Below, one piece after another: positions 14,293 to 64,000 of a stretch of 64,000 nucleotides of DNA. Made by a program: the position numbers and the translations under genes. The stretch's first letter is position 1; each line of letters begins with the position of its first letter. Below the pieces are notes generated by a model that saw only the letters and a list, made by a program, of their open reading frames with translations, was not told the DNA's origin and searched no databases. This DNA comes from Catajapyx aquilonaris (Eukaryota). The stretch spans positions 1-64,000 of the forward strand of contig KZ537962.1 in assembly GCA_000934665.2 (NCBI GenBank), in the 5' to 3' direction.

Positions 14293-14324
14293 ATGGACGA
14301 CGGTAACAAGCGGCAAGGAACAAG
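14293..14324 (+). CDS. krz: beta-arrestin coding exon 1 (MDDGNKRQGT-R)
   Basis: ATG GAC GAC GGT AAC AAG CGG CAA GGA ACA AG|gtaggt. Phase 2 joins exon 2 to give ...KRQGTRVFKK, the typical beta-arrestin N-terminus (human MGDKGTRVFKK). Confidence 0.85.
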
Positions 14325-14513
14325 GTAGGTTGTCTGCCCCCCCCCNNNNNNNNNNNNNNNNNNNCCCCCCCCCAAGTCATATTCTGCACATTACGCAATT
14401 GTACAGCTTAAATTATCGTACAGTAGTGGCGTAAGCTAACACAAATCATGAGTGAGGATTTTAAACAGGTGACATTGTTCGTCATTTTCAAAGGGTATAG
14501 TTCTGGCAAAATG

Positions 14514-17500: not shown

Positions 17501-20500
17501 CCATGGCTAGCCGCGTGAATTGCCTTTTATGGACATATGATGTGCGGGTGATCAATAGTCTACTTACAGCTTGTTATAGACTATTCGCAAGATGGTAATG
17601 GTTGGACTTTTTCGCAAAAAAACGTGACATTAACGAGGTTTAATCGCATTTGACATGGTACATTATGGAGCGAGAGCCCTGGGACAATGTATAAATTATG
17701 ACTTCCTTACATGAACTACAGTATTCAGTTTGTGTTATCCGAGAGTGCTTCGTGTGAAGAGGAGCTTTCCTGGGTTCTCCACGAAGAAAATTTTGTTTGG
17801 AATTGTCCAGATGAATGTTATTTGATGCGTTTAGAACATTATTGAGGCTTTAGATTAGTTGGTGTTTTATTCCAATAATTAGACCGTGACTGCCTATACA
17901 GTGCCGCACCTATTGAGTAAATGGGAGTATTCATCAGCCTCAGGTAGAAGTACTTCACTACCTAGACTGTTATAGGCTTGGTCATAGATTTCACCCCGTG
18001 CCACTTGAGTGGCGACAAGGCGATTTAGGTAATTTTCGCCCGGCAGAACCACTCCAGATCTGCCACTGTAAAGAAGAGCAAAGTAAATTCGATAATTGGG
18101 TTCATGCATTGCTGATGAGCCCTTAGCCCCACCCGCACCTCTCGTCGTCCTGGAAACGCACAATGACATACCGTATTCTGGGTACATTTTTAATTTCTGA
18201 ATGTTTGAACGGGCCTTCGGCTCCCAGGTTCGTCGAGGGAGCTGAGTGAAAGGGGGGTAATCTCGTGGAATGGACCGGAATAAATTCATGCCCCCNNCCC
18301 CCCCCCCCCCCTCAATCCCAGGTGATCGAAGGATTCGATATCCGGGCAGGCTGGGCTGAGGAAGAGTAGTGCAGGGAAAAGCAGCCTTGCATTTTCTTTC
18401 GGATGGGCTCCTCTTTCACTATAAGGAGAGCCCAAAACAAAGCCCTGAGCAGCATTTCCTTCATGGGCGAGCACTTCCCCTTTGCTATTGATCTTGGAGA
18501 ACAGGCGTTGGGCACTGTTTACACTACATGACACTGCGTTTCAGGGGGCTTCAACGAAAGGAAAAATATTTGATGGACATATTTACACTGTGGGGGGCAA
18601 TATGACAAAAGGCGGGCATGAATATTTGAATGGGCATTTCGTTCTCCGGGCATTGATAGAAGGAGATAGGGACTTTCATTCGCTTTAAAAGCTTTTTTCC
18701 AGGTGGAATTGGGGTCGATAATTGGGCCATCGCCCAGTGGGGACAACAGTCTCGGCTAGGGATAGAGATAACCTGGGTGCTTGTCACTCCTGATCTAAAG
18801 CGAGGGGATTTGACCACGCCCAGTGGTTACTGATTGCGGAGGCTGCCATCGTCGAAAACTTTCCGCGCCAGCACTTTTGCTGGGTCAACGGTGCACTGGA
18901 CCTTTTTGGAGAAATTGTGGGTGTGAGTGCGTGAAGCGTGGCAGCCCTTGGAAACGCTTTTATGTACTGTATACAGTGCACGCGCAAATGAGCACCTATT
19001 TGACAAAAACATTTCAGTGTTACATATGGTTTTCAATAATTTCCAAACCTTTAAGATCTCTTTAAATCTGTAGATCTATACCTTTAGACAAGTTGATAAG
19101 TACATCCAAGCGTAATTAGGATAATTTTTACGTATGTCCTAAAGCATGATATAGATTGAGAATACCGAGATGGCAGTTACAACTTTCTGGTGACGTCAGA
19201 TGATTGTTGTTAAGAAAGTGCGAGATGAGCGAGGATGGTGTCGCCCACACGGTTGAGAATGTGACGTGAGAAACAGCAGATCATTGCTGGCTGCAAGGGA
19301 ATCGCTCCAATTAGAGCCTCGGAGTAATTAAGTTCCTGCTGGCGATCACCGTCAGAGTTCTAGCTGTTTTCCATCAGTCAGGCTGAAATACGCGCAGGTT
19401 GGATTACATTGGAAGTCCTGCATCCAGCGCTTTAACGGAATTAAGGGGCTTTGAAAAATGCCCAGTGCGAAAAGGGGTTGGGTCTCTGTCTTCTTCACTT
19501 TTCCGGGCCTGACGCTAGGATCCCAAATCGAAAGAGACGTTCGACCTTCTTTTCTTCCAGGGCTGACAGCCCGAGATAGTCATCTTTGTCTGCCTCCTTA
19601 CCATTCAATCTTCTGCATGCTATTGAGGATGTTGAGATTTCGTGCACTGCTGTTTCTTGTATCACTTTTGTGACACCATTCGCTGGGCGTGTAGTGTAGA
19701 ATGACCTGCTTGCGGTGTAATGTGTACTTAAACTTGCTTTGTGGTTGTGAACAAGGAGTTATTGATGTTCTGCTAATACCCTAACTGAGATTTTGGTAGA
19801 AATTATCGATTGGATTTGAGGGCAAACAAGATGTTTGCGAAATGGTGTCCTGAATAACTTAGCCTTCCTTTGGCGGGGGTCCATAGAAAAAGTGGAGCTC
19901 CCAGAATTTTGATTCCTCATTTCGGACCTTTTTGGCTCTGGCGCTGTTCTGAGGAGAGGAATATTCATCACATTATAAAGATAGCAGTAATAATAACGAA
20001 ACTTAAGGAAAGTTCGACCTAACTAATTTGTCCTGGGCGATGTCTAATTAATTAAGCAACTTAATTAAAATACCGATGTATAGGCTAAAAGTTATCTGAC
20101 TTTGAGTTGACTGCAGGATGGTGTGTGCAGCGTTAGACAGCGATAGGATCGTCGGATGTGAGTAACACCGTGCCACTTTGATTGCGAATAAGCTCTATAC
20201 TGCCTTATCTGACTTCCTCCGTGCCATACGCAGTGACTGGCTTTCAGCGTTTGTTATGGAACACGAATAGGCACCAGAGGGAAATGTTCCGCGAGGCTAA
20301 TGCAAAAGCCCCTTGTCCTTATTTCTTGTTGGCAAAACCGCATAGACGTTGGGAGAAGTCGGGTCTTAGACAGCGTCGAAGTTAGTTCCTGGCAACGGAG
20401 ACATAATTAGCCCCAAATTGGATTTAATAATTATTATGGGAGTGTAATGGTGACTGTCAGGCCTGTGTATAGTCTGCACCGTTGCTGCTTCCGGACCATT

Positions 20501-47800: not shown

Positions 47801-48225
47801 TTCGAAACGAAACTCGGCTCTTAACGGAATTGGCACTTTTCGCACCATATTATACTGTGGCTGTGCAGCACTTGACAGGCTAATTTATTTCTTGAGAACC
47901 AACTCACCACTGACCTTCACCTCACTGCAGATTGTTAAATAAAGATAGGAAGTGCTTCCAAAGTGGTTAATTACATGTTTTGAATTCTTGTTATTTAACT
48001 TCTTCCATAGGGGGGCACAAATTGGTGGATTTACCTTAGTAAGTTATTTTTAAAATGGCGCATAAGCTGCCAGTGACATAACTCCCGTTTGACATCAAAC
48101 CACGCTTTATCTAGGCAGACTGCTAAAGCGGCTGTCACCCAAGGCACACGACACGAGGCTTGTTTTGCATCTCCCCCGAGCAAGGTGTCTTGATGATAAC
48201 GTCTGCTTTTCTTCTTCCATTGCAG

Positions 48226-48256
48226 AGTTTTCAAGAAGAGCTCGCCTAATGGGAAG
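48226..48256 (+). CDS. krz: beta-arrestin exon 2 (R-VFKKSSPNGK), 31 nt
   Basis: cttttcttcttccattgcag|A GTT TTC AAG AAG AGC TCG CCT AAT GGG AAG|gtaagt. Encodes the conserved phosphate-binding KK. Confidence 0.95.
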
Positions 48257-50352
48257 GTAAGTCGAGGGAATTAATCCGGAGCGGCGTTGCCTAGTGGGCA
48301 AAAGTGATTAAGGAACCCGGAAGTGATTGGCAGCCATGGAGCAAAGTGTTTGCCTTAGGAAAGGTATTGGTTCCTTGCAAGGTCCCAGGGCTAATTTATC
48401 CGAACGACTTGGGATTAACAGGGCACCGAGCCGCCTTTTTTCAACTCTTGTCTTCAGTTGCTCTTTTTTTTTGTGTGGCCGGGGAAGATGGGATGTGACA
48501 CCTAAAGGCTACAGGATGGCCTTTTCGCCCTTGGCCTCATGTAAAATGGCCAAGAGTGATGGCTGTAGGGTGACAGTTTCGTCTTCAGGGATGCAGGAAG
48601 GACGCTGAAGTAATTGGAATACATGGCTGCGTCTTGTGCCACGTAACACTTTTGTCCCCAAATATTTGTAGGTGTTGCCATCATGGCCAAAAGTGGGGCA
48701 AGTTTTTTCCATTTACAAATTGCGATGCGGCCTTGCGTTTCGTAATTTGGACAAACGCAGTTGGTTTTTTAATCCGGGCCTGCAGCACATACAGATTTCT
48801 GAGCGGAAGCTTTCTGATAGCAGCGTCAATGGGCATCAACAGATAATCCCTTGTCTAAATATTTCTCTTTCATTGCGCCACTGCCCCCACCTTTTAAGCT
48901 GATTAACTAATTTATTGTCAAATGGGGCGCGAAAAAAAAGGAAGTTATCTCTCTGCTGGAGCGAAATTGTCGGAGCCGTCTTTCTTTCCTGGCGGCTATA
49001 AACGTCCGCACAAAGGTCACCATTGCGGCCTGCCGACGACCAAACTGGCTGGAATGACGGTACTCTGACTCCGGTTGGCGACTCATAGACTCAATCAAGG
49101 CAGTGAAAAGTAATCCGTATTTTATTTTTTTATTTGCCATTTAGGAGCAACAATCGTGGAAAGAATTGCGTTTTTTTTTCTCTCTATATACTTTAGGGCG
49201 CATGTGTGGATTAACAAAAACAGGCACTGTACTTTGTCTTTGCACGCATTTATCCAATGTGAATGCCCCATTGCATGCCGGCTCTTCATTACTTTGATCC
49301 GGATATCCGCCCAAATTACAATGCTCAGTTGGCATATATTCGGTGGCATTAATTCCCGCATAAGCTGGCCGTAAAAATGGGCTTGACCATTTCTCACACT
49401 GGTTAATGGGTCATAGGAGTTGGGGGTAGAAATTGAGCGTAACAAAATCTGGGGATATATTGTATGAGAGGGATGCAGGTGAGGACATGGGTGAGGGTAT
49501 AACATGATGAACCGCCCGGTGGAAATCGATAGCCCAGTTAGTTGGAGGCGGGAGAGAAAATCCGCATCAGATGCCCTCCGTGTGTTGGTGACAGTTGCCA
49601 GGACGACGAAGCTCTCCTTCCACCTTTCTGTCCACCCTACATGATATGCAAAGTGGGTTTGGCCACACAGGGACTCTCAAAGGGTTGCAATTTATTGTAG
49701 GGATGTACTAGCATATTGGATTCGTGTTTAAAATCCATGTCGTGGGCTTGAAGAACTACAGTCGTTGGTGACCAGTTGAGGTCCGAAGCAAAGGTCCGAA
49801 GTCCGTCCCATTTTTTATCTGGGAACTAGAGTGCTGTTGGAAGTTGTTCAGAAGTGGAGCAGACATTTTGGAGGTGACAAATTGTTGGACGGGACCCACT
49901 TGTGGACCCGGTCACAGAGAAATGGAAAGGAAACAACGGCGAATGGTGACATGTACTCAGTGGCTATATGCCACAAGTTGGGTTGTAGGACTTTCTGCAC
50001 TCGGGTCGGGCGGAGTTTGAAACTGTTTGGTGGAGATAACCAAGACGTTATCGGATTAGAGACGTGTCCAAAATGTAGGTGGGTGATATTGACTGATAGG
50101 ATATCGTATACAAAATTTATCAGGATTATTATTAAGATTATTTCCAGTTTCAAATGCGCTATTTGAACACGTCCATTGACATTTTAGGCCATAAAATGTA
50201 AAACTGCGTATGATTTAAGGACACATACTGTACTTCAAAAGCTGCAAAATTGAATCACAACTGATCGTGTGAAAAGGCAACGCCGCTCCGTTTCACCCCT
50301 TTTTTGTTATTGAAATAGTTGTTTTTGTTTCTGACCATGTGTGTCATTTCAG

Positions 50353-50413
50353 ATTACAGTGTACCTTGGCAAGCGAGACTTTGTTGACCATGTCACTCAC
50401 GTGGATCCAATAG
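50353..50413 (+). CDS. krz: beta-arrestin exon 3 (ITVYLGKRDFVDHVTHVDPI-D), 61 nt
   Basis: ttcag| and |gtaagt boundaries. Contains the arrestin signature YLGKRDFVDH. Confidence 0.97.
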
Positions 50414-50650
50414 GTAAGTGGCACTAAAGAACTGCATGGGGGGGAAAGGAGCATGACTAAACTGTATAGCCAAAAGACCGGATTAGCTTATAGAGCACGC
50501 CCTGGATGCATGCCTATATAGCTGGTGACGTGAGTGGAGGAATTGGTTTTCGGGCTGGGTGTAGCTGATTGCGGTGCAGCCTCCAGAAAGCAATATTGGG
50601 GAAGCGCGTATAGTGGACCTGATGTAAAGAAAACGTGATGTGTGTTCCAG

Positions 50651-50844
50651 ACGGAGTGGTTCTGATTGACCCTGACTACGTGAAGGACAGGAAAGTGTAT
50701 GGGCATGTCCTGGCAGCCTTCCGGTATGGCAGGGAGGATCTGGACGTACTGGGGCTCACCTTTCGGAAGGACCTGTACCTGGCGTCGGAAAGGATCTTCC
50801 CAGCCGACCCCGATGTCGCCAAACGTCCACTCACCCGACTGCAG
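50651..50844 (+). CDS. krz: beta-arrestin exon 4 (GVVLIDPDY...[18 protein letters not shown]...LTRLQ), 194 nt
   Basis: Contains the finger-loop motif [14 protein letters not shown]. ccag| and |gtaaat boundaries, phase 1 to 0. Confidence 0.97.
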
Positions 50845-53342
50845 GTAAATTCATCCGCATAGTAGCTAATGTACAGCCCCAGTTGGAGCCAAATCTACAC
50901 AATTAAGATTGTGATTTGATATATTGCACATATCCAAAGATGGCCACCTGTATGATTTTTGTGGAATTTCTGACCCGTTGTTACAATGTACCTTGTTCTC
51001 GAATAGGGTTGTGATGAACTATGCATAAGATGAAGAGGGTGCTGTGTAGTACTAATTCATTGCGAGTTATTTATTTATGAAAACCGCGCTAAGCAAGTTC
51101 CAGTTTGCAAGTTTTTGGGGGTATAATTTGTCTGCGGGGGACGATGGTGGTTGTGGCCCATTGAAAATTAATGCGATTCAGGGAGTGATTTGCTGACTGA
51201 GGCAGTGAGGCTTCCGGATCCTTTGACGTCAGCGCAAGGTGTTATAAAATTGATATCTCTGGTTTAATCTGGTGTCCTATTTTAGATTTGAAGGCCCATA
51301 AATAGTGCGACACATGTACATGTTTAGGTTTGAAAATATGATACACGTTCTGTTCTAGAGATATCACATGGTGATGAGGGATTGCATTAGTGTATAGGAC
51401 ATACCATGTAGTGCTCAAGCACAATGACGAATTTCAGAAAGAGTCGAGGACTAACAGCAAGCTTTGGCACAATTGGAGCCCAGCAGGTTCAACGTTTTAT
51501 AAATCACTCAGCAATATTTCCAGTTTACCATCTGGAGCGTTTCCAAATGGCGCAATTTATCATCTGGAGTACTCTCAGTGACATCTCTGCCCTGATTTAC
51601 CGCACAATTGTTTCAGCGATAATATCAGTCCAATACCGAATCCAAATAATGCATTAAAACCGGAGGAATGATTGATCGTACCTGTCCTGGAAAAGGGGCA
51701 GGTGGCAGCAGTTGAACAGTCGTTTCTCTCAAGATTCATTGCTAGATTACGCACTTCCGCCTGTAAATTAAATGCACACATTCTGTGGAGAGTTGGTTGG
51801 GTTACAATGTTGTTCTGTGGCAATGACAAAACATAAATTATGCAATTTCGCATCTATCACATTTGTGAGGCCATTACCAGTGCTACAAACTTTGTCAGCA
51901 GGCGGTTAAAAAATTTAACTGGTGTACAATCATCCATTATTTTATTATTGTTGACCGACTGTAGTGGCTGACAAGACCTTCTGTATCCTGGGAGTTAGGC
52001 TGTGTCGGTAGTATAGTTGGGCACAGTTGGTTGCTTCCAGGCCAGGATGAAATGTGGTTTCTTGAGGAATCCTCCACTGGCACGCCTGGAATCTTGCGGG
52101 GCGAATTCAATACAACCAGTCTTGCGGCTCTTTACAGCCTGCTTCTAGGTGTAGAGTTAGAGCTAGTATATTTTTTACCCCCCTCTGGACGAGACCAGGC
52201 ATCCGGCAAATTGAAAGATTAGAGCTTCCTGGTTGGAGAGAGGAAGAGGATTTTTACTGGGTAGGAGTGGGGATGGGTATAGAGCCCGATGGTTATTCTC
52301 TTTCTTTTTTCCCCCCAACCGTGCGACGTTTGCGTCGACTTAGGAGCAGTTTTTCCTAGGTCCCGGAAAAGCCCTCGCAGCAACCAAATTGAGTTTGGTA
52401 GAGCAGCCGGGACGTTTTCGCCAAAGAGGAACGGATCTCAGGAGTTACTTGAAAACTCGAATTTGCCTTTTTTCTACTTGCTGGGTTGCGATCTTTACTT
52501 TTTATGGCTTGCATTTAAGTAATATTTATGGAATTACTTTATATTTTGTACAAGTAAATTATATTATGCTCTGAGTGACACCAGAAGATTAAGTGAATAA
52601 TACTTACAAGCACAATGTAATTAATGTGATTTTGCACTTGCTGGCCAGCATATCACATCATGGAATGGAGTCTGGCCTTGGTATTTTCTCTGGGATCTTG
52701 GAGGAGAGAAGCTACTCCACAGAGTATTGATCTTAATTTGGGGTATGAACTAAGTCATAAAAACCATTGGGATCCTCTGGTGGCATCATTTCAGTAGCGA
52801 TAACCATATGTTGTGGCCCTAGCTCCTCAGGGAGAGCTTTGGGCTTGTTGATTGTTTTAATTAAAGCCGATGGAAGTCAGCCTGCTGAGCGCAAAATGCA
52901 AATCTGCTAGCTTATTATACAGAACTGAGTGATCCTCAACAAAGTTGAAGCCCCGGGACTGACTTGGTCATGCCTCAGCTGTAATAATGATCCATAAGAA
53001 GTGCATCAAAGAGAAGGAAGTGTTGTTTCTGTGCCTACTGCAATATCCGTAATAATTTATTATCATTGAGTTGAAAGCACAAGAACTAATCAGTATTCTC
53101 CGTACTCAAATATCAGTGTTGTAGAAAAGTACAAACATACCCAGCTGAATCGTGTCAGTTTCACTATAATAAATTTTTACTGGGGTTCACAAATGCCTGT
53201 CATCTCTTGCCATGCTGAACTGGACTTCAAATTCCACCTTCGGCACCAGAATTTAATTGTTGGGTGCATCTGGGATAAGTGTGGAAGTTTGAAAGTTGTG
53301 GTGCTTAAATGGCCATCATCTGTTTGTCTCCCCCCATTGCAG

Positions 53343-53521
53343 GAGCGACTCATAAAGAAGTTGGGGCCAAATGCTTACCCATTCTACTTTGAGCTCCCAC
53401 CACACTGTCCTGCTTCTGTGACACTTCAACCTGCCCCAGGAGACACTGGTAAACCCTGTGGAGTGGATTACGAGCTCAAGGCCTTTGTGGGTGAGACTCC
53501 TGATGACAAACCACACAAAAG
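53343..53521 (+). CDS. krz: beta-arrestin exon 5 ([14 protein letters not shown]...KPHK-R), 179 nt
   Basis: Matches arrestin N-domain sequence [24 protein letters not shown]. gcag| and |gtcact boundaries. Confidence 0.97.
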
Positions 53522-53602
53522 GTCACTTTTTCTCCATTAGTACTTCATCCCCTCTTGTGTGGGTCCTTGCAGTGACAATTCATTTCCATTATTCTGATGC
53601 AG

Positions 53603-53738
53603 GAATTCCGTCCGTCTTGCCATCCGGAAGATCATGTATGCTCCTAGCAAACAAGGAGACCAGCCGTCAGTTGAAGTTAGTAAAGAATTTATGATGAGCC
53701 CCAACAAGTTACACCTTGAAGCTTCACTGGATAAGGAG
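53603..53738 (+). CDS. krz: beta-arrestin exon 6 (NSVRLAIRKIMYAP...LHLEASLDKE), 136 nt
   Basis: Polar-core arginine motif SVRLAIRK, the hinge, and LEASLDKE. gcag| and |gtaagc boundaries. Confidence 0.97.
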
Positions 53739-53847
53739 GTAAGCAATGTGTTGTGAGCATCTGTAGGCAATCAGTAATGTAGTAAGGGAGAACAATTAGC
53801 ATTTAATGGAACGCAGAGTCTATAAATTATTGTTCTGTTAATTTCAG

Positions 53848-53932
53848 CTGTACCACCATGGCGAGAGTATCGCCATCAATGTACATATTGCAAATAACTC
53901 TAACCGAATTGTCAAAAAAGTCAAAATTTCAG
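53848..53932 (+). CDS. krz: beta-arrestin exon 7A ([29 protein letters not shown]), 85 nt, alternative copy 1
   Basis: ttcag| and |gtacag boundaries, phase 0 to 1. Homologous to vertebrate [27 protein letters not shown]. Confidence 0.95.
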
Positions 53933-54102
53933 GTACAGTATGTGTTTTATGCCAGGCTTAACTTTATCTTTCTTCTTCCTTCTCACTGTTGCTCGTACAT
54001 GTGAAAGTGGTGGCAGGCTGGATTGGGTAGTTTACAGTGTCATGCCATGGGTGCTCTGTACCTGGAGCAAGGAAGAAAAACTTTCTCTTTTCCTGCATGT
54101 AG

Positions 54103-54187
54103 CTTTACTGCCATGCCGAGACCATCTCAGTCAATGTCCATATCCAGAATAATTCCAGCAGAAGTGTTAAAAAGATTAAAGTGTCAG
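54103..54187 (+). CDS. krz: beta-arrestin exon 7B (LYCHAETISVNVHIQNNSSRSVKKIKVS-V), 85 nt, alternative copy 2
   Basis: ctttctcttttcctgcatgtag| and CAG|gtatgt boundaries. Same length and phase as 7A, no stops, 18/28 aa identical to 7A. Confidence 0.9.
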
Positions 54188-54833
54188 GTATGTGTCACAT
54201 TCTATGTTTTTGCATTGGTAGTTGTGCAAAGAGTAGTGAACAACTTAATTATGACTGACAAGACTGACAAAGGTCACAGCATCGCTGCTTACTGCACTAC
54301 GTAGCATTTTCTATCGTTTGTCGTATGGATCAAGAGTAGAATGTGTCTCCTATGTTTGGGATGTACTTTATGTTACTGTTACACTGAGATGCACGTAAGG
54401 GATTTTGGTAGTCATAGACAGCTTGGGACTGATGAAATGTATCTCATTGTAATTAATCATAAAATTCAAGTATTCCAAACTCGATATCCATTCCTGTTTG
54501 CTGTTTTTCACACTAAGCTGCTGGTTTTTAAGCATTCTTTAGAGAGATAACAAAATTGGTATCTTCACTCAAGCAAGTGGAAAGGAAACAAATGTCAGTA
54601 ACCAAGTGCATAAATCAAAGTAAATTAGAGATGATATTAACTGTAAATATTTTTGTTAGCTCTTAAATAAATGCTTGAAAGTTAACGCTAAGCTGAATAT
54701 TAGTCGACAGTTGCATGCTAATAAACAGCATAGTGGGGAAAATTCTTAACTCAAGCAAATGTAGGGTTTGGAATACTTTGTGCACGTGTTAAAAACTACT
54801 GATTAACGTGACCTAAATGTTTTTCCTTTATAG

Positions 54834-54906
54834 TGCGTCAGTTTGCAGACATCTGCTTATTTTCTACTGCTCAGTACAAATGTACAGTAGCAGAAATTGA
54901 GAGTGA
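54834..54906 (+). CDS. krz: beta-arrestin exon 8 (RQFADICLFSTAQYKCTVAEIES-E), 73 nt
   Basis: Conserved VRQFADICLFSTAQYKC. tatag| and |gtaagt boundaries. Confidence 0.97.
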
Positions 54907-55732
54907 GTAAGTATCAGGTACATCAGGTATGAGGGGGGATAGGCTTAGTGCAATATGCAGTGACAAATCATGGGTGCAGTCATAGAGTACCGGTACCTGA
55001 TAATGTGAAATGCTGTCCCCTTCCCAAGGCCTGTTTATGGAAACTTTGCAGTTGTGACCTGAAATGTACATTTGCATATTTCATCAGACATTGACCATCT
55101 TGGGAGGGCTCATGATCCATGTAGCATTCATTGTGTTCTTACACTGAAGTTACTGTAATTTTGTTAGGTATAATGACCTTTTTCTGGTGTAATGAGTTCA
55201 GTCTCCAGATCAAGTGAAGGATTATTATCGAATATACAGTAGTAAAATTTTGAGGAGTTATCTCTGGACTTTCCCCTAGCCCTTCTTGGGTTTTACCATA
55301 ATCTCCTAGTTTCCTTGCCTTGTTTCCTCCAATGGACCGAACTTCCCTGTGGCAAAATTTTAACTACACCCATGATCATAGTAAATGATGAACAATTTGT
55401 GGAAGAGAAAGTACGGTAATTCAACCACTGTCAATAAGAGTCTTGGAATTTTAGTGAGTGCAAAAAACAATTTGAAGTGTAGCATACAAGTTGTTCATCA
55501 TTAATTTTCACTGCAGGTTAGTAATATGTGTTAATTAAGACAGGTTTTGCCAGTACAGTGCTTGAGAAACACTTTCAGTCGGTGCAGTAAAACCTAATGC
55601 ACTGAAGTGTCATGGTGGCATGATGCTTTTATAGCAGCTCGAAATTGTAAGTAAATTTCAGGCATTGGTGCGACTGGTTCTTACATTGCACTTTGTATCC
55701 ATGAGCAGTGGAGACTGACGTCTCAGCTATAG

Positions 55733-55946
55733 ATTTTTTATTGCTGGCTAAGCACGTCTCTGAAGAATTGATATCCTTCCTTTTGTATAGTAAGAAAATG
55801 ATTGACAAAAGTAGATGATTGCTATCAAGCTTCAACCTGATGGATTTGCTGTAAATTTTTTATTGCCTGCTAAGCTTATTGCACAGAATTGATGTCCTAC
55901 CTCTGTAGGAAGCAAAATGATTGACAAATATGAATGATTGCTATCA
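55733..55946. repeat. degenerate direct duplication (two copies of about 93 nt, offset about 120 nt) in intron 8
   Basis: attttttattgc..ctaagc..agaattgat.tcct.cc...aaaatgattgacaaa...atgattgctatca occurs at about 55733-55827 and again at about 55855-55946. Confidence 0.75.
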
Positions 55947-56784
55947 GGGCACAGCTTATTCGTCACAGCGGACATTGGAATAGAGTTGTGCATTAACTAT
56001 GCTTTTCACGTAATAACAGTATTAGCCATTCAATTGCCATAGTCGCATCAGAGAATGGATGGAAGTGCACTGTATAATGATTTAGAAGGCTTCTACGGGT
56101 GGGACATGCTATTAATTGCGTCATCCTTTCATTTTAAGATAATGCATGCAATCTGAGGAGTATCTCAAGGTAAATCAATCTAGATGCTGCACATGAACTT
56201 CACAGGTTCAGAGCTTCTCACTTGGGTCCAACTTGTTAGTGTGTGCTATGAATATGTTTCCTAAACTAGTCCATTGCTATAGTAATCTCAGTATCGTATC
56301 CATTGAGATGGAAAGCATTTTGCTTCATAATTCCGGAATGTAATTTATGAGCTAAGAATTCTTTTATTTAATTTGTACAGAGAATTCCCACAGCATTTCA
56401 TTCATATGAATGAGTATCACCAAGAGGACCAATAATATTCCTATAACATGACACAAAGTGTTTTCACATCTCTGCTCATGTTTCCTACTAACTCTAAACA
56501 GGACATTATTTATGGACATGCAGTAGGCCATTGACTCAATTGCAGATGTTAGTTTTATTAGTAGAGAATATGGAAGGATGACAGTAAATTTGTTAACTTT
56601 AAGTCCAGTAAATGCCATTTCCAAGGTCCCTTCATGTCACAGGAGAAATATAATTAGAGAAAAGTAGAACAAAAAGAAAGACTGAGATTTGGGGAAAAGA
56701 GTTGGCAGCAGAGTAGCTTAGCCCCCTGAAATTATTTTGCAAACGTCTGCTGCCACCATCACTGGAGCTGCGGTGTTGTTTCAG

Positions 56785-56928
56785 ACAAGGATGCCCGGTA
56801 GGCCCTGGCTTCACTTTGTCCAAGGTTTTCTATCTGACCCCCCTGTTAGCCAACAATAAAGATAAGCGAGGGTTAGCGCTAGATGGTCTCCTGAAACATG
56901 AAGACACTAACCTGGCGTCCTCAACAAT
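56785..56928 (+). CDS. krz: beta-arrestin exon 9A ([47 protein letters not shown]), 144 nt, alternative copy 1
   Basis: tgttgtttcag| and |gtaagt boundaries, phase 2 to 2. Carries the lariat/gate-loop motif [19 protein letters not shown]. Confidence 0.95.
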
Positions 56929-56993
56929 GTAAGTAGGATTCGGAAACGTAGGTATGGTAGCAGAGTAGTAACCGGTGGGCTTTTTTGTTGCAG

Positions 56994-57137
56994 AGAGGGC
57001 TGCCCAGTTGGGCCAGGCTTCACCCTCTCCAAAGTGTTCTCTTTAACTCCATTGCTGGCCAACAATAAGGACAAGTGGGGCTTGGCCCTTGATGGGCAGC
57101 TTAAACATGAGGATACTAATTTAGCTTCCAGTACCAT
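56994..57137 (+). CDS. krz: beta-arrestin exon 9B ([47 protein letters not shown]), 144 nt, alternative copy 2
   Basis: cttttttgttgcag| and |gtaagt boundaries. Same length and phase as 9A, 43/47 aa identical. Confidence 0.95.
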
Positions 57138-58846
57138 GTAAGTATGGTGCGCACACACTTACACGGCCCAGTAACAATAACTTGTCATCAATGGCAACAG
57201 CCGCTTCAACAATTAACTCACTCTCACTATATGTTAGGGGCCTCATGATGACACTTGCCGTAACTGACACTGTATTTCACTTAATCAAATTCACTCACGC
57301 CCATATGTCATTATGTTGGCCGCATCCTGCATGTTTCGCTAGATTTGTGTCTGTAGCTTTTGGTTGCGAATGGGGAGTAGCACTCGAGGTTTTTATGTGT
57401 GTGTGCATGTAATATGCAGTATTGGGCTGTGCAGAAATGTTGCCTGAAACGAGAAGAAATGGGTCTAATTAAAGTCGTAAACAAATATATAAAATAAATG
57501 GTATGTTTTTAAAATAAAGCATCTCATCACAGCCCACTACTGTACTAGGAGTCTGTGTGACGCACTCAAATCAGTAGTCATGTTGGAAAATGTGGCACAT
57601 AATAATTATGATAAATCTTGGCATTCGGACATGGGTCATGTGAGGCATTATTATGCACTTATCTGAAAATGATTCCACTAAGATACATATATTTGGTTTC
57701 TTTTTTAAATAAAAATGAAATCTGCTGATCTGAGTGTGATTTGGGCTTAAGGATGCCAGCAGGATGCAGAAGCTGTCATAAATATGTATGCAATAGTGTA
57801 AAGTTATAAATTATGCAGTTCCATTTTGCATACCTGCTGGTACCAACCTTTGACCCTTGCACTGGAGAAATCTATTGTTCATTTTTGATATTTGCTATCA
57901 TATTTATCATTGTAAATCTTAACTTTCCAGTTTCACACGTATGTCTGTCAGAAGTTTTATTATTTAGCAGTAGCTGACATTATAATTATTAGACATTGCC
58001 TTCTGTGGATTTCAGTGATGCCAGGAATTCTCTAAATCGTACAGTATGAGAATGGTTTGCAGACCATTCTGGGCACAGTTATAGAGGAAAATTGTCACTA
58101 TCTGCATCCATAATAATCAAAGTTTCTGTGAATGTGTTAGGCACATAAGATATACATGTGCTATTTGCCTGGCGAGATTATTGCCAAAACCAAAGTGTTT
58201 GTTCACTTTTATGTATGTCATTTTAGCGGTCAAAGGTTACCATGGGGTGTTCAGTAACACACACAAATCAACTGTCACATCATACAGAAACCGTAATATC
58301 AAATATTGCATCTAATCCTATTACAAAAACACCTGGATGCATTAGGTTTAATACTCAACTCCAACATGATATAGAAAGAATATGGGATAATAACATGCAG
58401 ACCATTGTGCAGAATTAAATTATCCATTAAATAGAAACTGGAAAGTGTGTAAAGAGAAGTGATACTGCACTGCAGCATGTATGGTATTGATAACCTAATG
58501 ATTCATTAGAACATGAAATCAAGGTGTGCATTAACATTGATTACTTGTCTCAACTTCATGAGAAATACCTTCAATGCAGGTATTTTGTAATGTTACCTGT
58601 ACCATCCATCCAGCAGTGTGGCACATGCCATGAAATGTTTTGCTCTTTGATTAAATATTATATGTTGCAATTAAAGTAATATCTTACAATGTGTTACATT
58701 TTCCTTGATGAATTCAAGGGTTGCAATCAAATGTTGTTCTAATATCAGAGTAAATGACAAGTTGATGTTTGAAATATTTTTGCCCTTGAATCCTGCTTGA
58801 ATGTTATTGCAATTACTGTATAATTCAGTGAGGGCTTAAATTGCAG

Positions 58847-58876
58847 GTTTGATCGGGATCAATCCGGTACTTCAAA
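58847..58876 (+). CDS. krz: candidate 30-nt cassette microexon (M-FDRDQSGTS-K)
   Basis: ttgcag|G TTT GAT CGG GAT CAA TCC GGT ACT TCA AA|gtaatt. Phase 2-2 matches the flanking exons and there is no stop. The pyrimidine tract is weak and I have no homology support. Confidence 0.35.
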
Positions 58877-58955
58877 GTAATTGCTTTTCTTAACTTAATT
58901 ATCATATCACAAAGAATGTAGCATATTAATATCGAAGCCATCAACTTTGTTGCAG

Positions 58956-59042
58956 AATCACTGAGCCATCTCAGAGAGAAAACTTGGGCATTATTGTCCA
59001 ATATAAAGTGAAGGTGAAGCTTTGCCTCGGACCCCTTTCAGG
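58956..59042 (+). CDS. krz: beta-arrestin exon 10 (ITEPSQRENLGIIVQYKVKVKLCLGPLS-G), 87 nt
   Basis: Conserved RENLGIIVQYKVKVKL. tgcag| and |gtaagt boundaries. Confidence 0.97.
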
Positions 59043-59118
59043 GTAAGTTCTTGTGAGACTTACGTGACTGTGCTTTTGATGCAGTTAAATATTCATGCGC
59101 ACTTCACTCTTGTTTCAG

Positions 59119-59265
59119 GGATCTAGTAGCAGAGCTGCCCTTCATCCTAATGCATCCAAAGCCAGAAGAGGAGCCCTTGCCTCCACTCCGTTTAAGTCCT
59201 GCCATGACCTATGACAATGATGGCCACAACGTTCCAGTGGACACCAACTTGATCCAACTTGACAC
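59119..59265 (+). CDS. krz: beta-arrestin exon 11 ([18 protein letters not shown]...[10 protein letters not shown]), 147 nt
   Basis: Contains [11 protein letters not shown] and the clathrin box LIQLD. ttcag| and |gtatgt boundaries. Confidence 0.97.
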
Positions 59266-59520
59266 GTATGTATACATCCTGTTGAACGTTTTCAAAACAT
59301 GTTCACTCGTATGACTTGCACAATGACATTCACATAAAGTGAGTTTGCAAAGATCATGTAATTTAAATAATAATCAGTAAATTACATTTCCAAGATTCAG
59401 TATTTGAATTGCGGCATTTTGTTGGTTACTTCTCACTTTCTCAGTGTTGGAGTTGGTGTAATAATTTCTAACACAAGTGCAGCGGTAGATATATCTAATT
59501 ATCACAAATTTTTGTTGCAG

Positions 59521-59641
59521 AGATGGCCAAGGTGGCATAGCAGACCCTGATGATGACATCATCTTTGAAGATTTTGCACGATTACGGCTAAAAGAACAAG
59601 AGACAGAAGATGGTTGGGAAGTGAGACAAGACCCTTTTTAG
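59521..59641 (+). CDS. krz: beta-arrestin last coding exon (DGQGGIADPDDDIIFEDFARLRLKEQETEDGWEVRQDPF*)
   Basis: AP-2 beta2-binding motif DDIIFEDFARLR. TAG stop at 59639-59641. Confidence 0.95.
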
Positions 59642-61810
59642 CTGAAAAAACACTCTTTGCACTGAATAACGTTCCGCATCTTCAGCAGAGTAATGTTCTG
59701 ACTGTTTTATGAAAGACGAGAAGCCAGCAAAAGCTTCTCATGAGTGCCATGACTCATGCTGAGTGACACTTGTACAGAAGAAGTGCAGGGCATTGGTAAT
59801 TTTTTTTTGCTTAGTTTTAAATATTTTCTTGCCCAGAAATGACGGGTATGACATAAACTGGGTTACACAACAATGTTTTGTATGATTATAATCATCTTTG
59901 TTCCCTTGCGACCTGCAGGGTCCTCCCTTTCCATATTTGTAATGTCTTTGTAATTCAGATGTTTGGTTTCTGTCCTACAAAGTTATATTTTGCTCAGCTT
60001 GTCTTCCATGTCCAACAACCATTTAGCTTAATCTTTTGTGTTGTTCTTATTGTATTCTACTTGTTATTGTATACTTGTGAGGTACTCCACACTTCTGTGG
60101 CCATATGTGATGCATTTGCTCAGTGTACTTTTCATCTACACTGATAGCGTCAGTAAAGTGCGCCTACAGAGGAACATGGTTGTTCCAAAAACTGAGTGTT
60201 TCTCCTTTTCAGTTTTAGCTCAGTCAAATTTTTAATTGGTAGGGTCGAAAAATCTTGCACAAACACCAAATGAAATATTTAAATTGGCATTAAAATACCT
60301 GACTTCACAAGACCTATTCCAAGAAATGAGAGAAGCAATGACTTATTACAAGGTGTTGCTCCGATGTGTGCACATCCGTAGCATCCAATGGCAATCACTT
60401 AGGACCACGTGAAGGTTACGTGCCAATAGCAAGAATTTAGCTGGACCTTGCTTGCCCTTCAGTTGTCTTATTCTGTGGTCTAGTCTTTTTGTCAAATATC
60501 GCGTCCTCTAAGGAAAGGGAGGATGACTGCATATACTCTCAACAACTGCAGTAGTCACTCTTTGTGATGCCCGCATGTAAATTGCTGTGAACAATTTTTT
60601 TTTGCATCTGTGACTTGCAAGTTACCTGGTTCTTTGCACTGTACCAGTGAATCAATGTACTGTACTGTATAGCGATGCTTGTTGTTTTGTAACAATGGTA
60701 TTTTAGAACGGCACTGATACATTAGGAACGCATTTGGAGGTTCTTTTGAATGTGTTGGCTAGGAGATGAGATTAGCTGCTCTTTTGTAAAGGAGGGCATT
60801 GTCATTCCATTGCTGCGAAATGCTAACTGAAGCAATTTGGCAACAAGGGTCCAATTTTTATCTCAGTAGTGGAGTACAGGGATGAGATTCAATTCAGATT
60901 GAAGAGTTCAATTGTAGGGAAAAGAGTTTTATATGCAACTGCCTTTTCAACTACCTGACATATTGGATGACCTCCATTGGAAACTAATTAATTTTGTCAA
61001 ATACTGCTTGTTTGTTGGTGGGCAGAGAAAAAATTGAGATGTATTCTTTAGAAGGAGATAATAATTGTTCAACACGTGCAACACATCAGTTAGCATCAGC
61101 CAACTAGGTGTTCCTGTAGGCGAGGAAAATATTTTCTTTTTTCTACATCTGGAACTGAACTTAAACTTGAAGAAAAGAGGCCAAAATACTGCTCATTTTG
61201 TATCGATTTTGACATAAGTAACCTTGTAGGGGCACGAACAAACTTGGCAAAGGTACAATGTATGCATTTGTATGTAACAATGCAGTTTTGGAAACGGGAG
61301 GCAACAGAAATGTATTAGTGAAATTGGTGCCAGGGCTTGGAGCTATGATGATGTATTTTAGTGCATACCTTTTTAACTGTGTAGGCAAAATTTTGAGAGG
61401 CATATTTCATATCACATCGATTTTCATCAGTTGTTTGCAAAGGTTGTTTAAAGATATTCCTTTATACATTGGAAAGGTGAAAGATGGCATTGTAATGAAA
61501 TGTTGTGCAAAATATTTACCAAGTGACTGCACCCAAATGCTTAACATAGAGTAATTTCGATAAATATGATGAGCTGCACATGCTGTAAAGCACCTGTGGA
61601 CTAATGGTCACTTGTATATTTTTTGAATGAACATGGCATGAATGTGATTTAGGATAACTGATTGTACTTGAGTTGCTGCTGCAGTATTTCAATGTGTAAT
61701 AATACCTTCTGCACTGAATTTATTTGCAACAAAGTTTGTTATATGTTGTATGGTAATCAATCATGTAAAGTAAGGTAAATTATTGTCAATAAAATTCTTT
61801 CCTGTAATGT
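59642..61810 (+). other. krz: probable beta-arrestin 3' UTR (about 2.1 kb)
   Basis: AT-rich non-coding sequence between the stop codon and the first canonical AATAAA I found. Confidence 0.55.
61788..61793 (+). terminator. polyadenylation signal AATAAA
   Basis: Several TGTA elements upstream and U/GU-rich sequence downstream. Lies about 440 nt before the next gene's ATG. Confidence 0.6.
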
Positions 61811-62178: not shown

Positions 62179-62240
62179 TATCGATCAAGTGCGGAGGGTC
62201 ACGTGATCAGGACACGTGACCGTCCAGCAAAGATGGCGGC
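62179..62240 (+). promoter_or_regulatory. NOMO proximal promoter and start region: DRE-like TATCGAT, two CACGTG E-boxes, YY1/TISU-like AAGATGGCGGC
   Basis: TATCGAT at 62179-62185, GGTCACGTGA at 62197-62206, CACGTGACC at 62213-62221, and AAGATGGCGGC spanning the ATG at 62233. Confidence 0.55.
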
Positions 62241-62402
62241 GTCCGAGTCGGCGAGTGCGGCCAGGATGCACCGCATTTTGCTTCTCCTCCTGGCCATAAC
62301 CGCAGCCAGTGTGGGTCCCACTGGAGCCGACGACATCCTGGGCTGCGGGGGATTCGTCAAGAGCGACATTGACCTCGATTTCGTACGGGTCGAGATCAAA
62401 CT
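62233..62402 (+). CDS. NOMO1: Nodal modulator (NOMO) coding exon 1, with signal peptide
   Basis: MAASESASAARMHRILLLLLAITAASVGPTGA-DDILGCGGFVKSDIDLDFVRVEIKL matches human NOMO GCGGFVKSDVEINYSLIEIKL. CT|gtaaga donor. An alternative Met lies at 62266. Confidence 0.92.
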
Positions 62403-62693
62403 GTAAGAACAACGCCGACACTCTTTTTTGCGGGTAGTGTTTCGGAGGGAATCGCAACTGTTCTATCCATTCGCAAGTCTGGGCCTTTTAAATAGGCCTA
62501 CCCGTTGGCTGAGGCCAAAAATAACGAGAACCACTCGCATTGTTGGGATGGTGTATATGTCCCTGATACATGATGTGATTAGAATTTGTGATTGCGTAAT
62601 TCACCATGAGGTAGTTATTTTCGGATCATTATGTTGTTGCCCCTCCCCCCAATGCTCCAGTTGCTTTTAGTAACACAGTATAATTCATTCCAG

Positions 62694-63492
62694 GTTCACC
62701 AAACAGGGGAGTCTGAAGTACCAGACTGACTGTGCCCCAAACAACGGCTACTATTTCCTTCCTCTGTATGACAAAGGCGAGTACATCCTTCGCGTGTCCC
62801 CTCCGGATGGATGGACCTTTGATCCTGCGGAGGTCCCTCTCAAAATAGATGGCTCCACTGACCCCTGCAGTAGGGGACAGGACGTCAATTTTGTCTTTCG
62901 GGGATTCTCTATGACTGGACAAGTCCTCAGCCATGGTCTGGACTCAGGCCCAGAAGGTGTGCCAGTATTTTTGATGCAGAAGGGTGCCACACTAGCAAAG
63001 ACAACAACCGGACCTGATGGCCAGTACAGCTTTGAAAAGATCATGCCTGGATCCTATGAGGTCAGGGTAGATCCACCTACTGGCTGGAAGATGATGCGGG
63101 CCAAGGCAGATGTGCACGTAAAGCGTGACAATGGGAAGGCAGTGGACCCCATTGTTGTTGCTGGATACGAAGTGTCTGGTCAAGTCGCTAGTGACGATGA
63201 ACCTGTACAAGGAGTGCAGTTTGTGTTGTTTAGCACTGATGGCCATGACCGCAAAGTGGATGGATGCAACAAAGCTCTTTTGACTGGATTCGTGCCTCCT
63301 AAAGACAAAGGAAAGCTGCTGTGCCACGTGTCTTCGAAAGCATCTGGCACCTTCACCTTTCCATCTGTTCCACCTGGAAGCTACAGGATCATACCATTCT
63401 ACAATTCTGAGCACATACGATTTGATGTGGCACCAACTGAGGTGGACTTTCAGGTCACCCATCATACTATTGACCTGCCCAGCAAGTTTCAG
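62694..63492 (+). CDS. NOMO1: Nodal modulator (NOMO) coding exon 2; the gene continues beyond the window
   Basis: FTKQGSLKYQTDCAPNNGYYFLPLYDKGEYILRVSPPDGWTFDP... matches NOMO YTKHGTLKYQTDCAPNNGYFMIPLYDKG. ccag| and CAG|gtatgt boundaries, phase 2 to 0. Confidence 0.95.
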
Positions 63493-64000
63493 GTATGTGG
63501 TTTGATGCGAAAAATTGTTCAATTAATGCAACCATTGTGTAGGGATGTATCAAAGGTTACTTTATTCCTAGGTTACCACAGTTGCTGCTGCCCCTGTTTC
63601 AGAAATTCAGGTTTCTCTTTTCCCAGCTCTCAAACTTTGTACTGTAAGCGTGATTGGTCACAGAAAAACCTTATAACAGAAATGTGACTTCCAAGGTGAA
63701 ATTGAGCACTGCTTGATCCAATTGTGTGTATAAAAAGTCACCAGAAGCTTTGTGATATCTGTTGGCACCGAATTTGTGTGAAAATTTAATTTTGCCGAAC
63801 AGATTAGCTGTTTGTAACAGTAAACTACCATTTTCTGTATGACTAATATAACTTTGTTAATGTTATACTACACCATTAATTCTGGTGCCACTTCATTAAC
63901 ACACTCACTGCTGTTAAGCCTTTTGTTCAGAGTGTCTCTGGTCAAAAAGATTGCTACCAGCATAATCTTTTGCCATAATAATAAGTCTAAAATGTTGGTG

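What the first reader, a model, noticed from the sequence alone, without database searches (positions are those of the whole stretch)
53848..57137. One beta-arrestin gene with two independent duplicated-exon cassettes: a combinatorial (2x2) arrestin isoform system
Seen in the sequence: two separate tandem exon pairs, 7A/7B and 9A/9B, each with equal length, equal phase, intact GT-AG sites and no stops, separated by single-copy exon 8. Established: vertebrates diversify beta-arrestin through paralogous genes (ARRB1/ARRB2), whereas Drosophila has a single non-visual arrestin, kurtz. Inference: this lineage diversifies one gene internally into up to four 429-aa isoforms (7A9A, 7A9B, 7B9A, 7B9B) that differ in the C-domain and could differ in receptor or partner preference. 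I do not know of a description of double mutually exclusive splicing in beta-arrestin, but I cannot search the literature here.
Basis: partly seen in the sequence, partly recalled or inferred. Interest (0 to 1): 0.9.

Follow-up and report, generated by a model that had tools for sequence, protein, structure and literature searches.

The report
Beta-arrestin gene with swappable duplicated exons
An arthropod beta-arrestin gene carries two pairs of duplicated exons; one pair is an ancient, widely shared either/or splicing switch that changes a key receptor-sensing loop, while the second pair is intact and conserved but has not yet been seen in RNA.

Summary
The structure is real. Exons 7A/7B (85 nt each) and 9A/9B (144 nt each) lie at the stated coordinates. 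All have AG/GT sites and open frames, and all four combinations give 429 aa.

Spliced contigs of the one run found show 8→9A, 8→9B, 9A→downstream and 9B→downstream, with no 9A→9B joint. So exon 9 is used in an either/or way.

The exon 9 pair is not special to this lineage. The same Arg-type and Trp-type copies occur in insects, decapods and ostracods, and public gene models of several insects list R-only and W-only isoforms of one gene. The switch residue aligns with beta-arrestin-1 R285 and bovine arrestin-1 R291, the first gate-loop residue.

Exon 7B was not seen in RNA or in any database protein. Its sequence is nevertheless as conserved as 7A, with saturated silent sites.

A third variable element turned up: an optional 30-nt microexon at 58847-58876.

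I found no paper describing this in 8 searches.

Verdict: a new member of a known kind, of moderate interest.

The parts
14293..14324 (+). Exon 1: ATG plus 32 coding nt (MDDGNKRQGT...), followed by a first intron of about 34 kb
   Evidence: A regex on the translation found the N-terminus typical of the homologues, followed by GT. No RNA cover was examined here.
48226..48256 (+). Exon 2 (31 nt)
   Evidence: tblastn of homologues; AG/GT checked.
50353..50413 (+). Exon 3 (61 nt)
   Evidence: tblastn; joint to exon 4 in a spliced contig.
50651..50844 (+). Exon 4 (194 nt), Arrestin_N
   Evidence: Pfam Arrestin_N, 22.9 bits; joints.
53343..53521 (+). Exon 5 (179 nt), Arrestin_N
   Evidence: Pfam Arrestin_N, 41.9 bits; joints.
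53603..53738 (+). Exon 6 (136 nt)
   Evidence: tblastn; joints 5→6 and 6→7A.
53848..53932 (+). Exon 7A (85 nt). It aligns to beta-arrestin-1 residues 207-234 and is the copy seen in RNA.
   Evidence: Joints 6→7A and 7A→8; Pfam Arrestin_C, 24.8 bits; PDB alignment of the sister copy.
54103..54187 (+). Exon 7B (85 nt): intact duplicate with its own AG, pyrimidine tract and GT. Not seen in RNA.
   Evidence: 60/85 nt and 18/28 aa identical to 7A. pS 0.70 against pN 0.19. 21.0 of 28 residues match orthologues, against 21.5 for 7A. Pfam Arrestin_C, 25.1 bits.
54834..54906 (+). Exon 8 (73 nt), single copy
   Evidence: Best other match in the window is 37/73.
56785..56928 (+). Exon 9A (144 nt), Arg type (KDKRG). 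It encodes about beta-arrestin-1 residues 258-305: a beta strand plus the lariat/gate loop.
   Evidence: Joints 8→9A and 9A→microexon. R at the switch position, as in 41 of 41 distinct first copies of other species.
56929..56993 (+). 65-nt intron between 9A and 9B; no joint removing it was seen
   Evidence: Sequence. No 56928→56994 joint among the 13 joints listed.
56994..57137 (+). Exon 9B (144 nt), Trp type (KDKWG)
   Evidence: Joints 8→9B, 9B→microexon and 9B→exon 10. W as in 27 of 29 distinct second copies. 100% identical to the exon of several Hymenoptera and Lepidoptera.
58847..58876 (+). Optional 30-nt microexon. It is in frame and adds 10 residues just after the gate loop (439 aa).
   Evidence: Joints 9A→58847, 9B→58847 and 58876→58956, and also 9B→58956 skipping it. 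AG/GT checked. Frame checked.
58956..59042 (+). Exon 10 (87 nt)
59119..59265 (+). Exon 11 (147 nt); ends in NLIQLD
59521..59641 (+). Coding part of the last exon (DDDIIFEDFARLRLK..., stop TAG). The exon runs on as 3' UTR beyond 60500.
   Evidence: One 2534-nt contig covers 59521-60500 without a joint.

Best explanation
This is the non-visual arrestin gene (beta-arrestin, the kurtz orthologue) of an arthropod. Its C-domain is diversified by splicing at up to three places.

(1) Exon 9 (shown). Exon 9 exists as two tandem copies, and the spliceosome takes one or the other. The two proteins differ mainly at the first residue of the gate loop: Arg in 9A, which is the state also found in vertebrate arrestins, and Trp in 9B. 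They also differ in the strand just before that residue. This pair arose before insects, decapods and ostracods diverged, and both copies have been kept by selection ever since.

Inferred: swapping Arg for Trp at this position changes how tightly the resting state is locked. That would change how much the arrestin depends on receptor phosphorylation, or which receptors it prefers. One gene would then do part of what ARRB1 and ARRB2 do in vertebrates.

(2) Microexon (shown). An optional 30-nt microexon adds 10 residues immediately after the gate loop, and it occurs with either exon 9 copy.

(3) Exon 7 (inferred, not shown). Exon 7 is also a functional either/or pair. 7B would be chosen in a tissue, stage or condition that the single available run did not sample. 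It re-tunes a beta-hairpin (beta-arrestin-1 residues 207-234) whose lysines are kept in both copies.

Exclusivity (inferred). For exon 7, the 85-nt length enforces it: taking both copies or neither shifts the frame and gives an early stop. For exon 9, the 65-nt intron between the copies may be too short to be removed efficiently.
For: Exon 9 usage. One search lists 13 GT..AG joints. They include 54906→56785, 54906→56994, 56928→58847, 57137→58847 and 57137→58956. None runs from 56928 to 56994, and none skips both copies.

Selection on exon 9. pS is 0.98 against pN 0.07. In 20000 neutral simulations with the same 42 changes, none gave 4 or fewer residue changes without a stop.

Age of exon 9.
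- 87 database proteins hold two blocks exactly 48 residues apart.
- The first block has R in 41 of 41 distinct sequences; the second has W in 27 of 29.
- The species include termite, mayfly, bugs, beetles, wasps, ants, sandfly, shrimp, crab, crayfish and ostracods.
- Of 303 arrestin-like proteins, 124 are W-only, 85 carry both, 47 are R-only and 42 are none or unscored.
- R-only and W-only isoforms of the same gene occur in 7 of the 14 species I tabulated.

Switch residue. Query position 28 aligns to 285 of full-length beta-arrestin-1 chains and to 291 of bovine arrestin-1. In passages read from PMC12733242, residues 291-307 are called the gate loop. There, Arg291Ala, Arg291Glu and Arg291Gln raise binding to unphosphorylated active rhodopsin, more than doubling it for Ala and Glu.

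Exon 7.
- pS 0.70 against pN 0.19.
- 25 random changes give no stop and 10 or fewer residue changes in only 0.075% of 20000 trials.
- 7B matches 19 distinct orthologous exon-7 peptides as well as 7A does (21.0 against 21.5 of 28). At 3 of the 10 differing sites, 7B is the copy that keeps the consensus residue.
- Equal Pfam Arrestin_C scores and intact splice sites.

Frame logic.
Against: Exon 7B.
- There is no transcript evidence for it. The one contig through this region runs 6→7A→8 and joins across 7B. In an assembly graph, an abundant 7B form would have split that contig, as happens at exon 9.
- No second exon-7 type appears in 269 database proteins with a readable exon 7. This includes members of 10 clusters opened for hidden isoforms.
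- G211, invariant in all 19 distinct orthologous peptides, is Ala in 7B.

Function of the Arg/Trp switch. This rests on mutagenesis of a different arrestin (visual arrestin-1) with different replacement residues. Trp was not tested there (no occurrence of 'Trp').

Steric exclusion at exon 9. This idea is weakened by 85 of 303 database models that include both copies. I cannot tell whether those models are real transcripts or prediction artefacts.

Breadth of RNA evidence. Only one run, of unrecorded library type, was available. Contigs show presence, not absence or proportions.
Confidence: 0.6

Rival explanations
1. Only exon 9 (with the microexon) is alternatively spliced. Exon 7B is a silent relic of an old duplication that is no longer, or hardly ever, spliced into mRNA.
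For: No joint to or from 7B, and one unbroken contig 6→7A→8 in the only RNA-like run. No 7B-type exon in any of 269 database proteins. The otherwise invariant G211 is replaced by Ala in 7B.
Against: Silent sites between 7A and 7B are near saturation (pS 0.70), yet only 10 of 28 residues differ. There is no stop or indel, and both splice sites are intact. The neutral expectation is 15.6 residue changes and a stop in 53% of trials, with a joint probability of 0.00075. 7B is as close to orthologues as 7A. A copy silent for that long should have decayed.
Confidence: 0.28
2. Exon 7B acts as a 'poison' exon. It is included together with 7A to shift the frame and send the mRNA to decay, so it regulates arrestin level rather than making a protein variant.
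For: 7A+7B gives a frameshift with the first stop at codon 255. 85 nt is not a multiple of three.
Against: A poison exon needs no protein-level conservation. Yet 7B keeps an arrestin-like open frame with pN/pS of about 0.27 and an Arrestin_C match equal to that of 7A. No 7A→7B joint was seen.
Confidence: 0.07
3. The two exon 9 copies are normally both included, giving a longer arrestin (477 aa here), as many database models suggest.
For: Including both keeps the frame. 85 of 303 database proteins carry both blocks.
Against: No 9A→9B joint in this organism, while both 9A→downstream and 8→9B joints exist. Many species have single-copy isoforms of both types. Inference: a second copy of a strand plus gate loop has no place in the arrestin fold as solved. 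Chains of 347-418 residues align once to the block.
Confidence: 0.05

Closest known systems
Beta-arrestin / kurtz genes of other insects and crustaceans, as annotated in public databases
   Same: The same gene and the same exon 9 pair, with the Arg-type copy first and the Trp-type copy second, 48 residues apart. Predicted isoforms carry one, the other, both or neither.
   Different: None of the 269 proteins with a readable exon 7 has a second exon-7 type. None of the proteins with a readable linker has the 10-residue microexon insert. This gene's 9A keeps T275 and L277, which resemble the second copy, and has Leu where all 41 distinct first copies have Gln. I found no paper that describes the pair (8 searches).
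[quoted passage not shown]
   Same: Adjacent homologous exons of equal length and phase. One is chosen per transcript, both are kept by selection, and several independent clusters can sit in one gene.
   Different: The gene here is an arrestin. No docking or selector RNA pairing could be shown. For one of the two clusters, use of the second copy is not shown.
Vertebrate non-visual arrestins: the paralogues ARRB1 and ARRB2, and the ARRB1 splice form '1B' (named in PDB entries)
   Same: More than one non-visual arrestin protein per organism, with differences in the C-domain.
   Different: Vertebrates use gene duplication plus a small cassette exon. From recall, that cassette adds 8 residues at the position of this gene's exon 10/11 border. 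This gene instead substitutes whole homologous exons and puts its cassette at the exon 9/10 border.
Rotifer beta-arrestin with two tandem 73-nt exons
   Same: A tandem-duplicated, either/or exon in the C-domain of a beta-arrestin of an invertebrate.
   Different: A different exon (73 nt, the length of single-copy exon 8 here) and a different phylum, so it is presumably an independent event. I did not re-examine that locus.

Membership tests
Arrestin family, non-visual (beta-arrestin / kurtz) type | Arrestin_N and Arrestin_C domains | tested here: met
   Single exons match Arrestin_N (41.9 and 22.9 bits) and Arrestin_C (24.8 and 25.1 bits); single exons are short, so some fall below the whole-protein cut-offs. 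Full-length homologues at about 81-87% identity carry both domains.
Arrestin family, non-visual (beta-arrestin / kurtz) type | Gate loop with the two polar-core aspartates (beta-arrestin-1 D290 and D297) | tested here: met
   Both 9A and 9B keep D at the positions aligned to 290 and 297. The role of these aspartates is taken from passages of PMC12733242.
Arrestin family, non-visual (beta-arrestin / kurtz) type | C-terminal tail motifs for clathrin and adaptor binding, which separate non-visual from visual arrestins (motif meaning recalled, not from a call) | tested here: met
   Exon 11 ends in NLIQLD and exon 12 encodes DDDIIFEDFARLRLK, as in the database beta-arrestins. That these are the clathrin box and the adaptor motif is recalled.
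Cluster of mutually exclusive, tandem-duplicated exons: exon 9 pair | Adjacent homologous exons of the same length and phase, each with its own splice sites | tested here: met
   144 nt each, 102/144 identical, AG/GT on both.
Cluster of mutually exclusive, tandem-duplicated exons: exon 9 pair | Transcripts carry one copy or the other, not both | tested here: met
   Joints 8→9A, 8→9B, 9A→next and 9B→next, with no 9A→9B joint among the 13 listed. This is one run of contigs only, so rare double inclusion is not excluded.
Cluster of mutually exclusive, tandem-duplicated exons: exon 9 pair | Both copies conserved across species | tested here: met
   87 proteins with both blocks. The R/W difference is fixed in 41 of 41 distinct first copies and 27 of 29 distinct second copies.
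Cluster of mutually exclusive, tandem-duplicated exons: exon 7 pair | Adjacent homologous exons of the same length and phase, each with its own splice sites | tested here: met
   85 nt each, 60/85 identical, AG/GT on both.
Cluster of mutually exclusive, tandem-duplicated exons: exon 7 pair | Transcripts carry one copy or the other | tested here: inconclusive
   Only 7A was seen, and a contig joins 7A to exon 8 across 7B. This is one run, and contigs drop rare variants.
Cluster of mutually exclusive, tandem-duplicated exons: exon 7 pair | Both copies under purifying selection | tested here: met
   pS 0.70 against pN 0.19; simulation P = 0.00075. Equal likeness to orthologues.
Cluster of mutually exclusive, tandem-duplicated exons: exon 7 pair | Both copies conserved across species | tested here: not met
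   No second exon-7 type in 269 database proteins. No close relative of this organism is in the database: the best identity on the variable exon 11 is 73%. No arthropod genomes could be searched, so the test is weak.

The most novel reading that the evidence does not exclude
One arthropod beta-arrestin gene encodes a three-site combinatorial code concentrated on the C-domain and lariat loop: exon 7A or 7B, exon 9A or 9B, and with or without the microexon. That gives up to eight proteins. At its core is an Arg/Trp switch at the first gate-loop residue, kept since before insects and crustaceans diverged. The switch would set how strongly the arrestin depends on receptor phosphorylation. Arthropods would then have solved by splicing what vertebrates solved by duplicating ARRB1 and ARRB2.
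Probability: 0.25. Interest if true: 0.7.

Novelty: new member of a known kind. Interest (0 to 1): 0.48.

Why it matters
Flies and other arthropods are usually described as having a single non-visual arrestin (passage in PMC9624432). Work on kurtz therefore treats it as one protein.

If the Arg-type and Trp-type forms differ in receptor choice or in their need for receptor phosphorylation, results from single-cDNA rescue or overexpression would describe only one of two conserved proteins.

The switch residue lies in the gate loop. Point mutations there in visual arrestin change selectivity for phosphorylated receptor (PMC12733242). Nature's own substitution would therefore be a ready-made test case for arrestin activation.

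The exon 7 pair and the microexon, if both are used, show that the same gene can be diversified repeatedly. The rotifer note of this scan suggests that arrestin C-domains are a recurrent target of exon duplication.

Tried and rejected
RNA evidence.
- The look-up of sequencing runs: no RNA holder listed. It returned one run (X1) of unrecorded kind holding 0.48 of the words. Its contigs turned out to be spliced.
- No contig of X1 covers 7B. The depth of that bin (1.84) is what 7A alone gives (85 x 9.02 / 417).
- The exon 1-2 region had no cover.

Search for 7B-like exons elsewhere.
- One search used 7B plus 23 read-through codons and found only 3 candidates, none scoring.
- Opening 10 protein clusters to look for hidden isoforms gave no second exon-7 type.
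- A search with the variable exon 11 found no close relative: the best identity was 73%.

Whole genome: none is held, so paralogues and relatives' genomes could not be searched.

RNA pairing that could explain exon choice.
- Inverted repeats were found, for example 55671-55688 with the 9A donor and 54189-54204 at the 7B donor with 54337-54352. They are short and unvalidated.
- Folding around 7B and around the 7A-7B intron gave z-scores of -0.18 and +0.10, so there is no signal.

Placement of the organism. A one-protein tree put the window weakly (85/76) beside non-insect arthropods. Placement is unresolved.

Shrimp 'beta-arrestin 1 and 2' (PMC5080627, PMC5222524, PMC6683665; passages read). 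These are treated as two genes with separate primers and accessions. Nothing there links them to this exon pair.

Literature. 8 searches gave no description of duplicated or mutually exclusive exons in an arrestin. I also read passages of PMC5501109, PMC5896119, PMC9741552 and PMC9624432.

Papers not held:
- Sun 2016 (JBC)
- Hatje & Kollmar 2013
- Johnson 2008
- Roman 2000
- Chai 2019
- Molnar 2011
A description there, or in their supplements, cannot be excluded.

Tandem Repeats Finder found nothing in 53000-60000.
Full report
WHAT IS THERE

The window's + strand carries a beta-arrestin gene of 12 constitutive exon positions. It starts at an ATG at 14293, has a first intron of about 34 kb, and ends at a TAG at 59639-59641. 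All borders are AG/GT.

- The exons match Pfam Arrestin_N and Arrestin_C.
- Homologues in the protein collection are beta-arrestin/kurtz proteins of insects and crustaceans, about 81-87% identical.
- No close relative is in the collection. On the variable exon 11 the best identity is 73%.
- A one-protein tree places the gene only weakly (85/76) beside non-insect arthropods.
- Downstream, from about 62.2 kb, a NOMO-like gene begins.

- 7A (53848-53932) and 7B (54103-54187) are 85 nt each, 60/85 nt and 18/28 aa identical.
- 9A (56785-56928) and 9B (56994-57137) are 144 nt each, 102/144 nt and 43/47 aa identical.
- Exon 8 (73 nt) lies between the pairs.
- In a scan of both strands of the window, each copy is by far the best match of its partner: 60 against a next best of 40 of 85, and 102 against 65 of 144. 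Exons 6, 8 and 10 have no partner.
- All four combinations give 429 aa. Two or no copies of exon 7 shift the frame. Two or no copies of exon 9 do not.

RNA EVIDENCE

Only one public run holds the stretch. Its library type is not on record, but its contigs are spliced. Laid on 48000-60500, they give 13 GT..AG joints that reproduce the model from exon 3 to exon 12.

- Exon 8 joins to 9A and, separately, to 9B.
- 9A and 9B each join onward.
- No joint removes the 65-nt intron between them, and none skips both.
- So exon 9 is used in an either/or way in this organism.

The joints also reveal a 30-nt exon at 58847-58876. It is reached from 9A and from 9B, and is skipped in a 9B→exon 10 joint. It is in frame and adds 10 residues (439 aa).

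For exon 7, one contig runs 6→7A→8 and joins across 7B. Nothing covers 7B. Contigs drop rare variants, so this shows that 7B was at most rare in that sample, not that it is never used.

EXON 9 IS AN OLD, SHARED SWITCH

A search with 9B gave hits of two kinds. One kind scored about 97 bits. The other scored about 160-173 bits because those proteins contain the block twice.

- Among all sequences fetched, 87 have two blocks exactly 48 residues apart. The first block has Arg at the switch position in 41 of 41 distinct sequences. The second has Trp in 27 of 29 and Cys in 2.
- The species include termite, cockroach, mayfly, bugs, beetles, wasps, ants, bees, sandfly, fungus gnat, shrimp, crab, crayfish, lobster and ostracods.
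- Of 303 arrestin-like proteins, 124 are W-only, 85 carry both, 47 are R-only, and 42 are none or unscored.
- In 7 of the 14 species I tabulated, R-only and W-only isoforms of one gene are both on record. Several ants also have a form with neither.
- The window's 9A shares the FYLTPLL stretch with the first copies of mayfly and isopod. Its silent sites against 9B are saturated (pS 0.98, pN 0.07). It is therefore an old orthologue of the Arg-type copy, not a recent conversion.

The pair thus predates the divergence of ostracods, malacostracans and insects. By general knowledge of arthropod history, that is on the order of half a billion years. The one sea-spider model seen has only an Arg-type block, which says nothing about a second copy.

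WHAT THE SWITCH TOUCHES

- Exon 9 aligns to about residues 258-305 of beta-arrestin-1. The R/W site aligns to R285, and to R291 of bovine arrestin-1.
- Both copies keep the two polar-core aspartates.
- In passages I read from PMC12733242, residues 291-307 are the gate loop. Arg291Ala, Arg291Glu and Arg291Gln raise binding to unphosphorylated active rhodopsin and lower selectivity for the phosphorylated form. Trp was not tested there.
- My inference is that the Trp form is less tightly locked, or differently selective, than the Arg form.
- Further type-specific sites lie at 258, 275 and 277.
- The window's 9A also has Leu where all 41 distinct first copies have Gln. This position aligns to K292 of beta-arrestin-1.
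- The microexon inserts its 10 residues directly after this loop.

EXON 7

Exon 7 aligns to beta-arrestin-1 residues 207-234. From recall, not from a call, K232 belongs to the C-domain phosphoinositide site. The lysines at 229, 230 and 232 are kept in both copies.

For function:
- Silent sites are near saturation (pS 0.70) while pN is 0.19.
- Random changes of the same number give a stop-free copy with 10 or fewer residue changes in 0.075% of 20000 trials.
- 7B is as close to 19 distinct orthologous peptides as 7A is (21.0 against 21.5 of 28). At three of the ten differing sites, 7B keeps the consensus residue.

Against function:
- There is no RNA evidence.
- No second exon-7 type appears in 269 database proteins.
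- The otherwise invariant G211 is Ala in 7B.

I put a functional either/or exon 7 at about 0.65, and a silent relic at about 0.28.

HOW EXCLUSIVITY MAY WORK (INFERRED)

For exon 7, the 85-nt length makes any other outcome a frameshift with an early stop.

For exon 9, the frame is no guard. The 65-nt intron, with a likely branch point about 24 nt from its end (read), may be too short for efficient removal. The many database models with both copies weaken this idea.

Inverted repeats near the donors exist, but folding shows no excess stability.

WHAT IS KNOWN

Mutually exclusive tandem exons are a classic device. The exon 9 isoforms are already implicit in public gene models of other species.

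Eight literature searches and passages of several arrestin and exon-duplication papers gave no description of it (56-58, 60). Six relevant papers were not held.

I did not check it.

VERDICT

The finding is real. It is a new member of a known kind.

Noticed in passing
window 58847-58876: An optional 30-nt, in-frame microexon between exon 9 and exon 10. It is joined from both 9A and 9B and skipped in a 9B→exon 10 joint. No database arrestin with a readable linker has an insert there.
   Followed up: partly
window 55715-55946: A diverged tandem duplication of about 120 nt inside intron 8. The copies lie at 55715-55827 and 55837-55946, and the matching pieces are 77-88% identical.
   Followed up: partly
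window 62200-63700 (+ strand): The start of a NOMO-like gene, with three NOMO beta-sandwich domains in one 336-aa open stretch. It lies about 2.5 kb after the arrestin stop codon.
   Followed up: partly
window 56164-56814 and 57110-57462: Contigs of run X1 run from intron 8 into 9A, and from the end of 9B into the next intron. They may be unspliced precursor, retained introns or some DNA in the run. This explains why the run holds 0.48 of the words of a mostly intronic stretch.
   Followed up: no
database proteins P0239, P0245, P0278, P0279, P0262, P0313: Ant, bee and one unnamed arrestin model lack exon 9 altogether (407, 399 or 379 aa). Exon 8 is joined in frame to exon 10, which would remove the gate loop. 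These may be real minor transcripts or prediction artefacts.
   Followed up: no
window 14325-48225: The first intron is about 34 kb and contains short runs of N (14346-14364, 18296-18297, 33422). The window as a whole has a positive G-over-C skew throughout.
   Followed up: no
window 59593-59641: The C-terminus (…RLRLKEQETEDGWEVRQDPF) differs from the …RLRLKG(G)ETEA ending of nearly all database homologues inspected. A 2534-nt contig shows no further splice there.
   Followed up: no
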